From: Enterobacteria phage phiC600P9
Strand: one strand, 5' to 3'
Length of the DNA: 64,000 bases
Sequence record: MZ681930.1
Position 1 is the first letter of the stretch, and every line of letters begins with the position of its first letter. The notes beneath the pieces were generated by a model. It saw only the letters and a list, made by a program, of their open reading frames with translations. It had not been told where the DNA came from and did not search any database. A program made the position numbers and the translations under genes. Of this stretch, positions 4,604-62,382 are shown one piece after another.

Positions 4604-4971
4604 TTAAATTTAATGGCTTGAAGAAGACTAATAATTCTCAAGCAACTTCTTTCATCTTTAACTGTAAAAGAAAGAGGGTCGCCAGATTTCATAGTGATGG
4701 TGCATCCAAAATCAAAATCTTCTGTAACTTCTTCGAAGAAGTCAAATTCTTCATCATAAATTAGAACATTACTCTGAAAACTGTGAAGAATTTTTCCATC
4801 ATTTCCAGATGCTGTACTAATCATTGTAACATTATGGCCTTTCATATCTTCAACGATAAATTCACTAGTCAATATTACAGCATTAATAGAACCATTCCTA
4901 TAAATAGCAGACATTAGATATTTCTTTTCTTCGCCTTCGCGAATACAATACTTCTTACCGATTTTAAACAT
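4600..4971 (-). CDS. hypothetical protein
   Basis: 123-aa ORF, start/stop-coupled with neighbours. Confidence 0.55.
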   Translation of the reverse strand: MFKIGKKYCIREGEEKKYLMSAIYRNGSINAVILTSEFIVEDMKGHNVTMISTASGNDGKILHSFQSNVLIYDEEFDFFEEVTEDFDFGCTITMKSGDPLSFTVKDERSCLRIISLLQAIKFK

Positions 4972-4973
4972 AA

Positions 4974-5150
4974 TTACCCTTTAAGTAAGTCGTAAAAACC
5001 ACCATTCACACGCTTAGGAGCAGAAGGCCGACGAGTAGACAAACGATGACATTTAGGGCAAACATCATTTTCTCGTTCAGAAATCTTTTTAATTTTTTCA
5101 TATTCATGCCCACAATCTTCGGATTGGCATTTATAATCATACATTGGCAT
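4974..5150 (-). CDS. small zinc-ribbon protein (FmdB-like, two CxxC pairs), hand-called
   Basis: 58-aa ORF MPMYDYKCQSEDCGH...CPKCH; AGGAA RBS; exactly fills the gap between flanking ORFs. Confidence 0.5.
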   Translation of the reverse strand: MPMYDYKCQSEDCGHEYEKIKKISERENDVCPKCHRLSTRRPSAPKRVNGGFYDLLKG

Positions 5151-5152
5151 AA

Positions 5153-5572
5153 TTATTCCTTAAAATGTGCTTTCAACATCTGATACAAGGACCATGCCTG
5201 TTCATTATTTTCAATAGTAACTTTCATTACCGGGAATTCTGTGAAATCTTCTATCTGTTCTTGCTCTTCCTGCTCTTGTTCTTCAGCTGCCTGGTATGGA
5301 TTTTCCACTTCATCAAAGAACCCAGCTTCGTTAGTAGAGAGCCAGATAAAGTTTTCGTCAAGGATATCAGCGCCGGCACAACGTCTGAGTACACCTGTGG
5401 ATGTCACAATTTTAGTAGGACGCCCAAGATAATCAGCATCTAAAATTTTAAAAGGTTCCATACCTAAACGTCGTGCATAGATTCCGTTATCAGTATGGTC
5501 TTTAATAAAATTTTCTTGAGCTTGTTTATTTTTAAATTGATACCATTTATTAACTTCAAATTTAATAGCCAT
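5153..5572 (-). CDS. hypothetical protein with acidic EQ-repeat segment (size matches T4 goF, unverified)
   Basis: 139-aa ORF. Confidence 0.5.
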
Positions 5573-5787
5573 TAATAAATTTCCTTCCAGTAAGTTGTAC
5601 CGTCTTCAGTAATTTCACGAAATACGCCATAAATTGGTTGTTTATCACCAACCTTTTCATACACATAAACCGAAGTCAAGTGAGTAAACTTAATGGTGTG
5701 TTCCTTTTGAACTACTACCAAATCTGGATCGAATAATACATCTTCAAATTCGTCATTAGTGCAGTTCTGAACAATTTTACGTTTCAT
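5572..5787 (-). CDS. small hypothetical protein (length matches T4 Cef, unverified)
   Basis: 71-aa ORF. Confidence 0.45.
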
Positions 5788-5800
5788 TACAATTTCCTCA

Positions 5801-6082
5801 TTAATTGAACAGTGGAGCGATGCGTTTCAGAAGAGTAGCAGCACCTTTGGCGAATTTTACATCATGAAAAACAGTTTCTTCTTCCGTTACAACACGAGCT
5901 TTAATGTTTTCACAATCCCAATTTTTACGAACAATCTTCAAAAGCTGCAGTAAATCTTTACATTCAGCAATATCGATAACACATCCACGAGAATCTTCCA
6001 TTATCGCACGATAACCATAAGCCATACCATAATCGTTGAAAGATTGCTCGATGATAATTAAGTTTTCCATTTTATTCTCCAA
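5801..6082 (-). CDS. hypothetical protein
   Basis: 93-aa ORF downstream of a promoter-like region at about 6100..6170. Confidence 0.5.
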   Translation of the reverse strand: MENKMENLIIIEQSFNDYGMAYGYRAIMEDSRGCVIDIAECKDLLQLLKIVRKNWDCENIKARVVTEEETVFHDVKFAKGAATLLKRIAPLFN

Positions 6083-6167
6083 GTTGTTTTCTGTATCAGT
6101 AGTTGATATTGATATAGTACCATAATCAACTACTGATGTATATAGTTTTATGAAAAAATTTTAAACT

Positions 6168-6656
6168 TTATGCATAGAGAGCTTTGCTATAGTGTTTAAT
6201 CCAGCTTTCAGGAATGACTTTGTATGTTCCTAAAAATACCACGTTGTACAGCTTAACACCATCTTCTACCCACTGATCGGTAATGTATGCACACATAGCA
6301 CGAGTATAAACAGCCACACCATCATCTTTGATAAATTTAAATTCACAAGGAGCAATGAACTTAATAGCCTGACCGAGTTTCCACTTAAAGTCTACACCTA
6401 CATGCGAAGTATCAATCGTTTCAATTCCTTTAGCAGGAACAGCTTTCAAAAACGCAGATTCAAGAAATTTCGCACGAACATAGCCAAACTGAGGTTTAGA
6501 TTTTCCATCTTTAGGAATGATACGCACTTTTACTTCAGAATCTTCATCTTTAACGCCGTGTTTAAGCTGAATGCTTACAATTTCGACCAATTTTCCTGCT
6601 GCTTTAGAACGGGATTTATCAGATACACGAGCTAATTCACCAATATTAATAATCAT
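6168..6656 (-). CDS. motB: MotB-like protein
   Basis: 162-aa ORF, same length and position as T4 MotB; C-terminal domain shared with the next ORF. Confidence 0.6.
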   Translation of the reverse strand: MIINIGELARVSDKSRSKAAGKLVEIVSIQLKHGVKDEDSEVKVRIIPKDGKSKPQFGYVRAKFLESAFLKAVPAKGIETIDTSHVGVDFKWKLGQAIKFIAPCEFKFIKDDGVAVYTRAMCAYITDQWVEDGVKLYNVVFLGTYKVIPESWIKHYSKALYA

Positions 6657-6732: not shown

Positions 6733-7275
6733 TTAATTTAAAATAGCTACCACCGCACTACGAGGTACTACACTAAAATCACCTGCATGAACAACGTTCA
6801 GAAGTTCAACACCATCTTCAATCCACTGGTCTGTTACCCAACCACAGACCGAAATAAATGGAGTCTTGATAGCTACCGCACGAGTTAGAAGGTCTGTAGG
6901 GTCTTGTTCTTCAACTTCTTGGAACAGGATGAACTCTGCTTCATAAACCAGGATTTTCTCTATTTTGTTATTGTCTAAACGACGACCGTGGACAATATAA
7001 GATTTAGTAAACCATTTACTTTTTCCAAAGTCTTCAACAGTAAATTCGCCTTCGCCAAAAACATCAGTCAAAGTTTTATAGCCGGAAATCAAGGCATTGG
7101 TTTTAATTTCAGGTTCAACTAGTTTGTAGGTTTTGCCGATTTCAATAGCGGTAGTCATAGTAGATTCCTTAATTTCCAGTGGTTTAACAGGGCATACATA
7201 AGTGCTTACAACATCAAAATCAATCAGTTTAGCTACCGGATTTGGTGTGTATTCAGGATTATAATTAAATTTCAT
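6733..7275 (-). CDS. MotB paralog (MotB.1-like)
   Basis: 180-aa ORF; C-terminus (VTDQWIEDGVELLNVV...) paralogous to MotB (ITDQWVEDGVKLYNVV...). Confidence 0.6.
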   Translation of the reverse strand: MKFNYNPEYTPNPVAKLIDFDVVSTYVCPVKPLEIKESTMTTAIEIGKTYKLVEPEIKTNALISGYKTLTDVFGEGEFTVEDFGKSKWFTKSYIVHGRRLDNNKIEKILVYEAEFILFQEVEEQDPTDLLTRAVAIKTPFISVCGWVTDQWIEDGVELLNVVHAGDFSVVPRSAVVAILN

Positions 7276-7277
7276 AT

Positions 7278-7817
7278 TTATCTCATTTCAATAAAATCTA
7301 TGAGTTCAGCATGTGATTTGCGGAACATTACTTGGTGCCCGCCAATGATAACTTCATCTTCAGGAACTTCGTATACAGCGAGATAAAATCCTTTAGAAGA
7401 TAATTCTTCCCGCTCTTCTCGTGTGAACCATCTCATCATATCATATTCACTAGCGAAAGCAAAATGATAAAGAGCTATAAACCATCCTGGAATATGATAT
7501 TCTACTCCAACATAATCTTTCTTGAACTTAGTATTAATTACTATATTAGCGTTTTTAACTAATAGTTTATCTTCGTGTGGTAAAGGAATTCTTTTATTAT
7601 TATCGCTATGATGAATAAAATTAGGTCTGTCATAACCTACGTGTAATAGCCACTCTTCGCTCCATGAATCTATTATACTCCTGTACGGCGTTATTTGAAC
7701 ACAAAGATTTCGACGTATTGTTATAGCATCTTCATAATTAAGAATACTAAAAGATGATTCAACACGATAAATTTTCATTTTATTATCCTCAGTAGCTATG
7801 GTGTTATAATACCACAA
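7278..7817 (-). CDS. hypothetical protein
   Basis: 179-aa ORF. Confidence 0.5.
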   Translation of the reverse strand: MWYYNTIATEDNKMKIYRVESSFSILNYEDAITIRRNLCVQITPYRSIIDSWSEEWLLHVGYDRPNFIHHSDNNKRIPLPHEDKLLVKNANIVINTKFKKDYVGVEYHIPGWFIALYHFAFASEYDMMRWFTREEREELSSKGFYLAVYEVPEDEVIIGGHQVMFRKSHAELIDFIEMR

Positions 7818-42438: not shown

Positions 42439-42908
42439 TTTAAACTCTTTCTAAGCTGCTTCTTAAATGAAGCTATTAATTGTGTTTTGGTGTCAGATTC
42501 ATTATATTCAAATCCTCTTTGAAGCATCTCAGCCATCATTTCCTCTTTTCCTAAACGAGAAAATTCCTTTGATTTATCTCCAACGAAGTTAGGGTGAATA
42601 TTATTTTGGGTGTAATCGGATTTTAAATAAGTAAGTAAATTTTCTAACCATTCAAGATAATCAACACCTTGTCCCTTTAAGCCAGAACGATTAAATTTAT
42701 GCTTCATTTGACCTTCTGCAGCATTACAGAGATTACACAGCAACCCACGTACCTTTCCTGCTTTCGGTCCATTTAATTCATGGTCATGGTCAAGATGATT
42801 AGCTTGAACATCAGGATTTAATTCTCGTTGGCAAATTAAGCATTTACCGTTTTGTGCATCATAAAATTTTTGTTTTTCTTCTTTGTACAATTTGCCAGTC
42901 AATAACAT
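42435..42908 (-). CDS. 49: recombination endonuclease VII (Holliday junction resolvase)
   Basis: 157-aa ORF essentially matching T4 endo VII as recalled (CLICQRELNPD...HLDHDHELNG). Confidence 0.95.
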   Translation of the reverse strand: MLLTGKLYKEEKQKFYDAQNGKCLICQRELNPDVQANHLDHDHELNGPKAGKVRGLLCNLCNAAEGQMKHKFNRSGLKGQGVDYLEWLENLLTYLKSDYTQNNIHPNFVGDKSKEFSRLGKEEMMAEMLQRGFEYNESDTKTQLIASFKKQLRKSLK

Positions 42909-59419: not shown

Positions 59420-59597
59420 CTAAACGAATAGGTTCATGAATGCCATATCCCTGAACAGAAATTTCTGTCGTGGGATAAATTCCATCAATATCGCCCATAT
59501 TCCACGCTTCATTAAATTGCTGTTCGCCTGAATTACTAAACCATTCGGCGAAAGCATTTAGCACATCTTCAGAACCTTCAATAATTATCTTTGCCAT
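59376..59597 (-). CDS. small hypothetical protein
   Basis: 73-aa ORF coupled to the GrcA-like gene. Confidence 0.45.
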   Translation of the reverse strand: MAKIIIEGSEDVLNAFAEWFSNSGEQQFNEAWNMGDIDGIYPTTEISVQGYGIHEPIRLVEYDLCTGEEVKYD

Positions 59598-59971
59598 TAC
59601 AAACTCTCGGTAAAGGTACGAGCGATAACGTCGCGCTGCTGTTCCGGAGTCAGAGAGTTAAAGCGAACTGCATAACCGGATACACGGATGGTCAGCTGCG
59701 GATATTTTTCCGGATGCTTAACTGCATCTTCCAGAGTTTCGCGACGCAGAACGTTAACGTTCAGGTGTTGACCACCTTCAATTTTAACTGTAGGCTGTTG
59801 CTCAATTTCAATTTCACGGGCATGCAAACCATAGAAAATTTCTGGGTCTACAAAAGAGTCCTCTTTAAAGGTTTTAGATACAATAATTCGTGCTTGAATA
59901 CCATCTTCAAAATAAATAGTACCTTTATGTGTGCCTTCAAGAATTTGATATGCTTTCATATAACCTCTCAA
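59597..59971 (-). CDS. autonomous glycyl radical cofactor (GrcA/YfiD-like)
   Basis: 124-aa ORF; C-terminal ~60 aa near-identical to E. coli GrcA including glycyl-radical motif RVSGYAV; this DNA is markedly GC-richer than its surroundings. Confidence 0.85.
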
Positions 59972-60297
59972 TTAGAAAATAAATTTATCCAAGATTGTTC
60001 TTTAATTAAAAATGGCTCAGAATCATATGCCATTAAACTCTGTGTGATTAGTCCTTTAAAAGGCCCATCAATAAATTCCATGGTAAAATATGGAATTTTA
60101 TTCATTAGCCGTGCATTAGGAGCAGTGCACAAAACTCTGCATCCTTTGAATACGCCTTTTTGTAATTTGTATTGCTTAGGATAAAATTCGCTTAAAATGT
60201 TATTTTTTGCCAAAATTTCAAAATGATTCACCAATTTATTTTTAATAGTTTTTGGTGAAAAATAAAGATATTCGAAAAGCTGAGTGTCTGTCATCAT
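59968..60297 (-). CDS. hypothetical protein (start revised to the Met overlapping the upstream stop)
   Basis: track ORF 59968..60348; ATGA-coupled start [10 protein letters not shown] at about 60297 is more likely. Confidence 0.45.
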
Positions 60298-60833
60298 TGC
60301 ATTCCGATTACGAAAAACTGTGGACGAGTAATACCACCAATACAACATTTAATATTACAGCAGCAGTGTACAGTGTCAATATGGACACTATAAATCTTAT
60401 CCATATCAGGAGATTTGACAGGCTCATCAATTATATACAAAATTCGCGAAAGCTTTAAACCTCTGAACTTGCTTCCTTTATTACCGATAAAACTGCGCAC
60501 AGAATCAGTAAATAAACGAAAACGTATATCATCATTAGAATAACGCGAAAATTCCTTTTTGATGCTATTTGCAGAAATTTTAGCGTAAGCTGAAGTATTA
60601 GAAAGAACAATAACTGTTCCACCGTCATACAACCAATTAGCGGCAAAATTAGTTACTGCAGTTGATTTACCGGATTGACGTCCACCATCTAGTCGAAGTG
60701 TGCAATACTGCTTAAGTAAGTCTTCAAATGGTGGGATATAATCGTTTTTACAAATTTCTTCTACTCTAGCATCAGAATAGTGTGTAAAAGCATTCATCAG
60801 GGATAGATAAGGACCAGTTAAAAATGTTCTCAT
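60294..60833 (-). CDS. P-loop NTPase with Cys-rich C-terminus
   Basis: 179-aa ORF; Walker A GGRQSGKST, Walker B-like ILYIIDE, tail HCCCNIKCC. Confidence 0.5.
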   Translation of the reverse strand: MRTFLTGPYLSLMNAFTHYSDARVEEICKNDYIPPFEDLLKQYCTLRLDGGRQSGKSTAVTNFAANWLYDGGTVIVLSNTSAYAKISANSIKKEFSRYSNDDIRFRLFTDSVRSFIGNKGSKFRGLKLSRILYIIDEPVKSPDMDKIYSVHIDTVHCCCNIKCCIGGITRPQFFVIGMQ

Positions 60834-60972
60834 TTCTTCTCTCTAAGTTTGGGCCATTCCGTGGCGCATGAATTGTCCATTTCTGTATTTACCCATTACC
60901 GCACTTGGGCTCGACCTTATTACAGTTGGCGGGAATCCCTCACAGAATCATGAGGTCCAGGTTGTTCCCATA

Positions 60973-61446
60973 TTATTTGAACGATTTAACGTACTGAATA
61001 GAACCTTTACTATTCACGAAAGCGATTTTACCATTTTTATTATACATGGTAGCAGTACGCTGATAGCCATAAGTTTGCTTACCAGATTGATAACCAACTA
61101 ATGCAAAATTATCTTCACCCATTTTATTCTGTTTAGCGCGAATGCGTTCATGACCATGTGCCATAAGAACCTTAGCATCACCAGTTGCAATGGATCGACG
61201 AGTTTTTTCATCTTCAACTGTATTAACAAAGTCGTCAAATGAATCAAATTTAGCATGAGATTTATTATACAGTTTTCCATCTACTGCATAATTATATCCC
61301 TGTACATCCATCTCAACTTCTGTACCATCATCCAATACAGCAGTGATTTTCTGTCCTTTTTTAAATTTCAAAAGATCAGTAAAAGATTCAGCAATAATTT
61401 GAGAATTAATAGCTGCTTCAGTAATAAATTCTTGATATGTTTTCAT
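60973..61446 (-). CDS. internal (capsid-packaged) protein with capsid targeting sequence
   Basis: 157-aa ORF beginning MKTYQEFITE, the T4 IP targeting-sequence signature; at the ipII/ipIII locus next to e. Confidence 0.7.
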   Translation of the reverse strand: MKTYQEFITEAAINSQIIAESFTDLLKFKKGQKITAVLDDGTEVEMDVQGYNYAVDGKLYNKSHAKFDSFDDFVNTVEDEKTRRSIATGDAKVLMAHGHERIRAKQNKMGEDNFALVGYQSGKQTYGYQRTATMYNKNGKIAFVNSKGSIQYVKSFK

Positions 61447-61462
61447 GTGTATCCTTTAATTT

Positions 61463-61780
61463 TTATTCTTTAGGGAAGTTTTTAGAATATGCATCATAAA
61501 GCTTATTTCCAATACGGCGGAAAACTCTAGCCGCAAAACGATTTTCTGGGTTTTTAATCATGATTTGCATCATATAAGTACCCGCGTCAGAAAGAGCTTC
61601 TTCATAGTACCCGTTAATTTCTTTAAGAGTCCTACGTTTACCACCAGGACCATCAACAGTGATTTTCCATTTACCTGTAGAAGTGCGACTTGGCGGCTCA
61701 ACTTGTTCAATCCAGATATAACCGCCTTCTACACGTTGTCCTGCAGCAGATTCTGCAATAAATTCTTTATAGGTTTTCAT
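61463..61780 (-). CDS. internal (capsid-packaged) protein with capsid targeting sequence
   Basis: 105-aa ORF beginning MKTYKEFIAE. Confidence 0.7.
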   Translation of the reverse strand: MKTYKEFIAESAAGQRVEGGYIWIEQVEPPSRTSTGKWKITVDGPGGKRRTLKEINGYYEEALSDAGTYMMQIMIKNPENRFAARVFRRIGNKLYDAYSKNFPKE

Positions 61781-61851
61781 GTGTTTCCTTTAAATATTTT
61801 AATTAGTAATTGTGAATATACTATCACAGTTTTAGGAGAAAGTAAACAACT

Positions 61852-62382
<531 letters not shown>

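What the first reader, a model, noticed from the sequence alone, without database searches (positions are those of the whole stretch)
60294..60833. P-loop NTPase with Cys cluster at the locus where T4 carries denV; no denV homolog seen
No ORF in the window resembles T4 endonuclease V (denV), which in T4 lies between the vs.x ORFs and the IP genes. Instead there is a 179-aa Walker-motif protein with a Cys-rich tail, translationally coupled to the next ORF. Absence of denV matches T2/T6-type phages, which are classically more UV-sensitive than T4.
Basis: partly seen in the sequence, partly recalled or inferred. Interest (0 to 1): 0.45.

Follow-up and report, generated by a model that had tools for sequence, protein, structure and literature searches.

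The report
T4 vs.8 ATPase gene; denV absent
The 179-residue protein is not a replacement for the UV-repair gene denV but the ordinary ortholog of T4 gene vs.8, a small terminase-like ATPase of unknown role. This T2-like phage does lack denV, and the most interesting feature is a conserved, apparently undescribed folded RNA just upstream of vs.8.

Summary
The window is phage phiC600P9 (MT630408.1), a Tequatrovirus. The ORF at 60294-60833 (-) is real, has Walker A and B motifs and a Cys-rich tail, and overlaps the next ORF by ATGA.

It is the ortholog of T4 Vs.8: 97% identical over all 179 residues. In T4, vs.8 sits next to denV, so it does not replace denV.

denV is absent from the whole phiC600P9 genome and from the whole T2 genome. 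T6 lacks it in the matching 17-kb stretch. In related phages denV is a cassette found at two different positions, and 30 of 35 related loci carry it.

The 139-nt stretch upstream of vs.8, which T4 annotates as part of a 219-aa Vs.8, is a conserved pseudoknotted RNA. It has strong covariation support and no Rfam match. It also occurs in Vequintavirus, in other phage contigs and on a Pseudomonas megaplasmid.

The parts
60294..60833 (-). vs.8 ortholog: a 179-aa stand-alone ASCE P-loop ATPase, terminase-like in sequence motifs and predicted fold
60666..60689 (-). Walker A (P-loop), residues 49-56 DGGRQSGK
   Evidence: Invariant in 19 homologs. Aligns with gp17 SRQLGKT.
60423..60443 (-). Walker B with the predicted catalytic Glu, residues 131-137 ILYIIDE
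   Evidence: Nearly invariant. Aligns with gp17 MIYIDE.
60342..60368 (-). Cys cluster HCCCNIKCC (residues 156-164), lineage-specific
   Evidence: Not conserved below about 60% identity. pLDDT below 50.
59968..60297 (-). vs.7 ortholog (109 aa), translationally coupled to vs.8 by an ATGA overlap; function unknown
   Evidence: PHROG 2049. The structure model is unusable, pLDDT 52.
60847..60969 (-). Conserved pseudoknotted RNA element, directly after the ipIV stop codon and directly before the vs.8 start
   Evidence: cmsearch 78.6 bits, E 2e-17, the only copy in the genome. Covariation support. No Rfam match. This copy has a 1-nt deletion in the 5' strand of helix H4 that is seen in no other copy examined.
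60973..61446 (-). ipIV-type internal virion protein gene (DUF7412)
   Evidence: Pfam E 6e-96. Annotated ipIV in PP01. 100% identical to the T2 copy.
61463..61780 (-). ip10-type internal protein gene
   Evidence: PP01 annotation. PHROG 3966.
61781..61851 (-). e-ip10 intergenic stretch: the empty site where JK38-type phages carry denV
   Evidence: Alignment with JK38 shows the whole 417-nt denV ORF cleanly absent.

Best explanation
The ORF is the phiC600P9 ortholog of T4 early gene vs.8. It is a conserved accessory gene of T4-like phages, not a substitute for denV.

Vs.8 is a single-domain ASCE (RecA-like) P-loop ATPase. Its motifs and predicted fold are closest to subdomain I of the ATPase of the large terminase gp17. 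It has no nuclease domain and no second RecA domain.

Inferred mechanism:
- Lys56 and Ser57 (Walker A) bind the ATP phosphates and Mg2+.
- Asp136 and Glu137 (Walker B plus catalytic Glu) hydrolyse ATP.
- A lone RecA-like domain needs a partner to complete its active site. It therefore probably works as a homo-oligomer, or with the translationally coupled Vs.7. One of the invariant arginines (R52, R113, R124) would be supplied in trans.
- It probably acts on nucleic acid early in infection.

The gene is dispensable: it is frameshifted in the T2 record and deleted in T6.

denV is absent because it is a presence/absence cassette in the variable ip region. Two alleles occupy two different sites in related phages, and both sites are empty here, as in T2. 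The expected consequence is T2-like, higher UV sensitivity.

Shown here: the orthology, the motifs, the predicted fold, the absence of denV, and the RNA element. Inferred: ATP hydrolysis, oligomerisation, the substrate, and the phenotype.
For: Orthology:
- 97% identity to T4 Vs.8.
- Synteny e-ip-(denV)-vs.8-vs.7-vs.6-...-regB in the window, PP01, JK38 and T4.

Family:
- 27 homologs in the first search and 50 representatives in the exhaustive search. The named ones are T4-like phage proteins. Most full-length members are about 150-185 aa, with a few up to 259 aa.
- Invariant D49, G50, G51, R52, Q53, S54, G55, K56, R113, R124, G125, E137 and P138; D136 is nearly invariant.

Terminase likeness:
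- PHROG 2, terminase large subunit, E 2e-6.
- hhalign aligns Walker A, RG and Walker B in register with gp17 residues 160-275.

denV:
- Absent from the whole genome and from T2.
- The cassette sits at two positions, between vs.8 and ipII in T4 and between e and ip10 in JK38.
- The junction in the window is clean.
- denV is present in 30 of 35 vs.8 loci.
Against: - No biochemical or genetic data on Vs.8 were found.
- Pfam matches are all below the gathering thresholds: AAA_14 17.4 bits against 27, and Terminase_6N 14.3 bits against 22.
- The hhalign probability is only 11%.
- The partner role of Vs.7 is a guess. Its structure model failed.
- Loss in T2 and T6 shows the gene is not needed on laboratory hosts.
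Confidence: 0.8

Rival explanations
1. The NTPase replaces denV functionally, as an alternative UV or DNA-repair factor at the same locus.
For: It lies near the position of denV in T4. Its fold class includes DNA translocases and repair helicases.
Against: T4 has both genes side by side. 30 of 35 loci carry both. The protein is 97% identical between the denV+ phage T4 and this denV- phage. T2 lacks denV, and its vs.8 is frameshifted as well.
Confidence: 0.03
2. Vs.8 is a nucleotide or nucleoside kinase, that is, a P-loop protein of the kinase-GTPase class.
For: It is small and has a Walker A motif. T4 encodes several kinases nearby (tk, gene 1).
Confidence: 0.05
3. Vs.8 is a metal-binding (Zn or Fe-S) protein whose function depends on the C-terminal Cys cluster.
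For: Five Cys within nine residues in this phage and four in T4.
Against: The cluster is missing in about half of the aligned family, while the ATPase motifs are invariant. The model is disordered there.
Confidence: 0.07
4. Vs.8 and the upstream RNA form one functional unit. Either Vs.8 is an RNA-dependent ATPase or ribonucleoprotein, loosely like the phi29 packaging RNA (pRNA) with its ATPase, or the RNA is a cis-regulatory leader that sets vs.8-vs.7 translation.
For: The RNA is directly 5' of vs.8 in most of the T4-like loci examined, even where the Vs.8 proteins are only 33-44% identical. A pyrimidine-rich CCUCUCC tract in the RNA could pair with the purine-rich ribosome-binding site (sequence).
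Against: The RNA also occurs without vs.8: in Vequintavirus near tRNA genes, after a tRNA array (L088) or an endolysin gene (L092), each time followed by a terminator, and on a Pseudomonas megaplasmid. In L026 and L035 another ORF, apparently an internal-protein gene, lies between it and vs.8.
Confidence: 0.15

Closest known systems
T4 Vs.8 (NP_049732, PHROG 1488)
   Same: Same gene. 97% identity, same neighbours, same coupling to vs.7.
   Different: T4 annotates 219 aa. The extra 40 residues overlie the conserved RNA element and are not kept as a reading frame in other phages. The window has an in-frame TAG 9 nt before the ATG and a 1-nt deletion further upstream. The 179-aa form is therefore the likely true product.
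ATPase domain of the large terminase, T4 gp17 (PDB 2o0h; Pfam Terminase_6N)
   Same: RecA-like core. Walker A with Arg-Gln (GRQSGKS against SRQLGKT). An RG motif followed by hhhhDE.
   Different: About one third of the size. No subdomain II, no C-terminal nuclease domain and no portal-binding parts. Below the Pfam threshold. The phage has its own complete gp17.
RecA1 domain of SF2 helicases (DEAD-box, RIG-I-like, Mfd, Snf2)
   Different: Only one RecA domain. No Q, Ia, SAT or other helicase motifs were found by Pfam.
T4 endonuclease V (DenV)
   Same: Nothing beyond the chromosomal neighbourhood.
   Different: No sequence similarity. DenV is a 138-aa pyrimidine-dimer glycosylase and is absent from this genome.
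HDV-like (including theta) self-cleaving ribozymes, as the nearest known architecture for the upstream RNA
   Same: The order of the strands gives a nested double pseudoknot: H1 5', H7 5', H2 hairpin, H1 3', H3 domain, H7 3'. Some copies sit right after tRNA genes in phages, as theta ribozymes do (PMC10879173).
   Different: No P1.1 pairing. No conserved cytosine at the start of the junction before the last strand. The loop that corresponds to L3 is variable. The P4-like domain (H3-H4-H5) is the most conserved part instead of being dispensable. No hit to any Rfam HDV family.

Membership tests
T4 Vs.8 family (PHROG 1488) | Full-length sequence similarity to T4 Vs.8 | tested here: met
   173 of 179 residues identical, E 3e-134. 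phrog_1488 at E 2e-78 over residues 3-179.
T4 Vs.8 family (PHROG 1488) | Conserved position between vs.7 and the ip/denV block, same strand | tested here: met
   Most of the 35 viral loci also have vs.7 downstream.
ASCE P-loop NTPases | Walker A GxxxxGK[ST] | tested here: met
   GGRQSGKS at residues 50-57, invariant.
ASCE P-loop NTPases | Walker B hhhhD followed by a catalytic Glu | tested here: met
   ILYIIDE at residues 131-137. E137 is invariant and D136 is at least 90% conserved.
ASCE P-loop NTPases | RecA-like alpha/beta core | tested here: met
ASCE P-loop NTPases | NTP hydrolysis | not testable with these tools
   Needs an enzyme assay.
Large terminase ATPase (Pfam Terminase_6N) | Score above the Pfam gathering threshold | tested here: not met
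   14.3 bits against a cut-off of 22.
Large terminase ATPase (Pfam Terminase_6N) | C-terminal RNase H-like nuclease domain and ATPase subdomain II | tested here: not met
   The protein ends about 40 residues after Walker B, at 179 aa in total.
Large terminase ATPase (Pfam Terminase_6N) | Walker A, RG and Walker B motifs in register | tested here: met
DenV / T4 endonuclease V | Sequence similarity to DenV anywhere in the genome | tested here: not met
   tblastn found no hit at E<1 in 164.7 kb. Controls scored E 1e-72 to 1e-93.
Cys-cluster metal-binding proteins | Ligand cysteines conserved across the family | tested here: not met
   Absent in P0014-P0018, P0022, P0024, P0025 and P0026.
Rfam families (for the upstream RNA) | Covariance-model match at E of 1 or better | tested here: not met
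   No match at the element in the window or in 7 other loci.
HDV-like ribozymes (for the upstream RNA) | Nested double-pseudoknot strand order | tested here: met
   H1 and H7 cross. The pairs of both helices covary. Further instances were read by eye.
HDV-like ribozymes (for the upstream RNA) | Catalytic C at the first position of J4/2, and P1.1 | tested here: not met
   The junction before H7 3' is GUUUACAU, GUAAAUA, GUUUAAUU or GCU, with no fixed C. The two bases after H1 3' are pyrimidines and cannot pair with the variable H2 loop. The criterion is taken from PMC10879173.
HDV-like ribozymes (for the upstream RNA) | Self-cleavage | not testable with these tools
   Needs an in vitro transcription and cleavage assay.

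The most novel reading that the evidence does not exclude
The roughly 90-125-nt element directly upstream of vs.8 (window 60847-60969, minus strand) is a member of a previously undescribed class of pseudoknotted structured RNA. In T4 it lies inside the annotated 5' end of vs.8.

The class is spread among T4-like phages, Vequintavirus, other phage contigs and a Pseudomonas megaplasmid. It could be a ribozyme, a ligand- or protein-binding regulator, or a transcript-end protector. In T4-like phages it may work together with the Vs.8 ATPase.
Probability: 0.5. Interest if true: 0.65.

Novelty: already known. Interest (0 to 1): 0.25.

Why it matters
As written, the finding is ordinary. It describes a known, unnamed T4 gene and a known kind of gene-content difference among T-even phages.

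- Vs.8 can now be described as a minimal terminase-like ATPase. That gives a concrete handle (K56 and E137 mutants, oligomer state, nucleic-acid dependence) on one of the many T4 early genes without a function.
- The T4 reference annotation of a 219-aa Vs.8 is probably 40 residues too long.
- The over-annotated stretch hides a conserved pseudoknotted RNA with no Rfam family. If it is real and new, it would be a new phage RNA class sitting in the best-studied phage genome. It is directly testable with existing T4 genetics and transcriptome data.

Tried and rejected
- Vs.8 as a DenV replacement: rejected, because the two genes coexist.
- A hidden denV elsewhere: whole-genome tblastn and blastn were negative. 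The weak hit in gene 49 is a short local similarity inside endonuclease VII.
- The upstream stretch as coding sequence: rejected. Different frames are open in different phages, indels are not multiples of three, and the window has an in-frame stop.
- The upstream stretch as a tRNA or tmRNA: ARAGORN found none.
- The upstream stretch as a relative of T4 rnaC or rnaD: no similarity by eye, and the covariance model does not hit them.
- Single-sequence folding of the element is not better than shuffled sequence (z +0.46). RNAalifold on a raw MAFFT alignment found almost nothing. The structure emerged only from manual comparison followed by the covariance model.
- A crude test of longest complementary run for the pseudoknot helix was only weakly positive: native 4.28 against cross-paired 3.70. 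The column-wise counts are the better evidence.
- HDV-like ribozyme: the topology is similar but the defining features are missing.
- Vs.7 structure: pLDDT 52, unusable.
- NCBIfam found nothing. PADLOC gave only weak generic ATPase hits.
- Literature searches for vs.8 and for the RNA sequence found nothing relevant.
- The afdb50 fold library was unavailable.
- The pattern scan of bacterial genomes gave a chance-level number of hits, 15 found against about 16 expected by my own calculation. Only the Pseudomonas megaplasmid hit is clearly real: it scores 37 bits and shows the full architecture. One further hit, L121 in a Malonomonas MAG, scored 19.9 bits (E 0.0024) and was not examined.
- The whole T6 genome was not scanned, only its matching 17 kb.

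Full report
**Identity of the window.** The region 59500-61900 is 100% identical to Enterobacteria phage phiC600P9 (MT630408.1), a Tequatrovirus from wastewater. 311 phage records cover at least 80% of it. Record coordinates equal window coordinates plus one.

**The observation.**
- The ORF at 60294-60833 (minus strand, 179 aa, ATG) is present and is annotated as a hypothetical protein in the record.
- It carries a Walker A motif (DGGRQSGKS, residues 49-57), a Walker B motif (ILYIIDE, residues 131-137) and the cluster HCCCNIKCC (residues 156-164).
- Its TGA stop overlaps the ATG of the next ORF as ATGA.
- The descriptive part of the finding is therefore correct.

**What the ORF is.**
- PP01, a close relative with T4-style gene names, calls the same ORF vs.8. 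Its neighbours are vs.7, vs.6, ipIV, ip10 and e.
- BLASTP against T4 Vs.8 (NP_049732) gives 173 of 179 identical residues.
- In T4 the gene order on this strand is e, ipIII, ipII, denV, vs.8, vs.7, vs.6 ... regB. Vs.8 is therefore the neighbour of denV, not its replacement.

**The missing denV.**
- tblastn with T4 DenV and with the 78%-identical DenV of phage JK38 found nothing at E<1 in the whole phiC600P9 genome (window plus L005-L007). Both controls were found at E 1e-72 to 1e-93. There is no nucleotide remnant either.
- A weak hit seen only in a very permissive search lies inside gene 49, endonuclease VII.
- Related phages carry denV at two different places. T4 has it between ipII and vs.8. 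JK38 has it between e and ip10. Both sites are empty here.
- At the e-ip10 site the 417-nt ORF is cleanly missing from between the conserved sequence that follows e and the ip10 start.
- Among 35 IMG/VR loci with a vs.8 homolog, 30 have a full denV within 3 kb upstream, one has a 42-residue remnant (L011), and four have none.
- Among the 40 records most similar to the window, roughly 60% lack the insertion.
- The complete T2 genome (AP018813.1) has no DenV. In the T6 record (AP018814.1) regB directly abuts e, so vs.3 to vs.8, denV and the ip genes are all missing from the locus.
- That T2 and T6 are more UV-sensitive than T4 because they lack the v (denV) function is classical phage genetics. 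I cite it from my own knowledge. It was not tested here.

**What Vs.8 looks like.**
- Named homologs are all from T4-like phages. The first search found 27 clusters. An exhaustive profile search of 1.84 billion representatives found 50, most full-length members about 150-185 aa and a few up to 259 aa.
- In an alignment of 19 members down to 40% identity, the invariant positions include D49, G50, G51, R52, Q53, S54, G55, K56, R113, R124, G125, E137 and P138. D136 is nearly invariant.
- The cysteines of the 'cluster' are absent in about half the family. They fall in the only segment of the model with pLDDT below 50.
- Pfam gives only sub-threshold matches (AAA_14, AAA_30, Terminase_6N). PHROGs gives the unknown-function family 1488 and a weaker match to the large terminase (E 2e-6).
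- A profile comparison with the phage's own gp17 aligns Walker A (GRQSGKS against SRQLGKT), an RG motif and Walker B (ILYIIDE against MIYIDE) in register. The statistical support is low (E 0.0027, probability 11%).
- The AlphaFold model (pLDDT 82, pTM 0.83) is a single alpha/beta domain.
- In the viral structure library the nearest neighbours are many uncharacterised 125-185-aa phage proteins.
- NCBIfam and PADLOC add nothing.
- I conclude that Vs.8 is a minimal, stand-alone ASCE ATPase that resembles the terminase ATPase core. It fails the membership tests for the terminase family: it is below threshold, has no nuclease domain and has no subdomain II.
- A kinase fold is not supported.
- A lone RecA-like domain normally needs a partner subunit to complete its active site. 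I therefore infer an oligomer, or a complex with the coupled Vs.7. This is inference only. The Vs.7 model was unusable.
- The gene is dispensable on laboratory hosts. It is broken by frameshifts in the T2 record and deleted in T6.
- No publication on its function was found.

**An unexpected feature next to the gene.**
- The 139 nt between the ipIV stop and the vs.8 start (60834-60972) are almost invariant between the window, T4, JK38 and PP01, even though the upstream gene differs.
- T4 annotates this stretch as the first 40 codons of a 219-aa Vs.8. The frame is not kept elsewhere. The window has a 1-nt deletion and an in-frame TAG 9 nt before the ATG. Other phages open other frames, and indels are not multiples of three.
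- The core of the stretch stays 76-97% identical at the DNA level in loci whose Vs.8 proteins are only 33-44% identical.
- Comparison of the variants shows a set of helices:
  - H1: GGGAA/UUCCC in the window; AAAGG/CCUUU, AAAGC/GCUUU or AAAGA/UCUUU elsewhere.
  - H2: a hairpin, CCUCA/UGAGG, with a paired deletion to CUA/UAG in some phages.
  - H3: CCA/UGG, CCCU/AGGG or CUGG/CCAG. It encloses H4 and H5.
  - H4: ACCU/AGGU or GCCU/AGGC, closed by a GNRA-like six-base loop.
  - H5: a short hairpin.
  - H7: a long-range helix that crosses H1 and so forms a pseudoknot. Variants are CCG/CGG, ACCA/UGGU, ACAC/GUGU, CUCGA/UCGAG and CGCCG/CGGUG.
- On a 20-sequence MAFFT alignment, 87% of cells pair, against 19-48% when partners are slid. 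Nine pairs change on both sides, against 1-3 when slid. No shuffle out of 500 reached the observed covariation score.
- On a 47-sequence alignment fitted to the covariance model, 91.7% of cells pair and 14 of 24 pairs change on both sides. The covariation score is 0.297, against 0.02-0.10 when slid. This alignment leans towards the model's structure by construction.
- G-U pairs occur on the vs.8 sense strand, which fixes the orientation of the RNA.
- The model finds one copy in phiC600P9 (60847-60969, 78.6 bits), one in T4 (90 bits, locus L004 6816-6939, which is record 64815-64938), one in T2 and none in the T6 locus.
- It also finds compact copies outside T4-like phages:
  - Vequintavirus magaca, in an intergenic stretch about 560 nt upstream of a tRNA cluster.
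  - A contig where the element follows the last tRNA of an array and precedes a terminator (L088).
  - A contig where it follows an endolysin gene (L092).
  - Contigs L079, L100 and L046.
  - A Pseudomonas megaplasmid (L118).
  - Where I read them through (magaca, L088, L079, L092 and L118), most helices are rebuilt from different bases; in L100 they are weaker and L046 was only partly mapped.
- Three T4-like loci carry two copies in tandem (L019, L030 and L041).
- Rfam 15 has no match at E of 1 or better. Text searches found no description.
- The strand order resembles the nested double pseudoknot of HDV-like ribozymes. Phage 'theta' ribozymes do sit next to tRNAs (PMC10879173). However, the defining catalytic C at the start of the last junction and the P1.1 pairing are missing. 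The most conserved part is the domain that is dispensable in HDV-like ribozymes (sequences). I do not file it there.
- Its function is open. Candidates are a ribozyme of another kind, a binding site for a ligand or protein, a protector of transcript ends, or a regulator of vs.8.
- The window's copy has a 1-nt deletion in the 5' strand of H4 that is found in no other copy examined. It also has the lowest score of its subtype. The T2 copy has a G-to-T change in the other strand of the same helix. Either could be a real defect or a sequencing error.

**Verdict.**
- The finding as stated is an ordinary, already annotated situation: a T4 vs.8 ortholog in a T2-like phage that lacks the denV cassette.
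The 'instead of denV' reading is wrong. The comparison with T2 holds, and the T6 locus agrees.
- I score the finding low.
- The upstream RNA is a separate lead. It deserves a proper covariation analysis and a bench test.

Noticed in passing
window 60847-60969 (-); T4 locus L004 6816-6939 (-), which is NC_000866 64815-64938: A conserved pseudoknotted RNA element lies directly upstream of vs.8, with covariation in six helices and no Rfam match. T4 annotates it as the N-terminal 40 codons of a 219-aa Vs.8, which is probably an over-extension. It also occurs in Vequintavirus, other phage contigs and a Pseudomonas megaplasmid.
   Followed up: partly
window 60925-60926 (-); T2 locus L008 about 7370: The window's RNA copy lacks one C of the otherwise invariant ACCU strand of helix H4 (CCAA-CUGU against CCAACCUGU). 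The T2 copy has AAUGUC instead of AAGGUC in the opposite strand. Either could be a real defect or a sequencing error.
   Followed up: partly
L019 2716-2973, L030 2723-2979, L041 2745 onward: Some T4-like phages carry two diverged copies of the RNA element in tandem upstream of vs.8.
   Followed up: partly
L008 (T2 AP018813.1) 6757-7289: vs.8 in this T2 record is split over three reading frames, by frameshifts or sequencing errors. SV76 has a matching 109-aa fragment (P0021).
   Followed up: partly
L009 (T6 AP018814.1) 5490-6507: In T6, regB is directly followed by e. The whole block from vs.3 to vs.8, denV and the ip genes is missing from this locus.
   Followed up: partly
L002 (JK38) 4791-5207 against L004 (T4) 6940-7356: Two denV alleles, 78% identical at the protein level, occupy different sites: between e and ip10, or between ipII and vs.8. 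This suggests that denV moves as a cassette within the variable ip region.
   Followed up: partly
L011 1800-1925: A 42-residue remnant of DenV (74% identical to T4) in an IMG/VR T4-like genome. It appears to be a decaying denV.
   Followed up: no
window 42450-42596 (-), inside gene 49: There is a short local similarity between DenV residues 56-101 and the C-terminal part of endonuclease VII: 41% over 49 residues, and E 5e-4 only in a search of the window alone. I recall such a similarity being noted in the literature, but I did not verify this.
   Followed up: no
window 59597-59971 (-): The vs.6 ortholog is a GrcA-like autonomous glycyl-radical protein (Pfam Gly_radical, E 3e-18). It lies in the same gene string as vs.8 and vs.7.
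   Followed up: no
window 61800-61851 (-): An early-promoter-like sequence (GTTTAC, 17 nt, TAGTAT) follows gene e. In JK38 it precedes denV. In the window and PP01 it directly precedes ip10.
   Followed up: no
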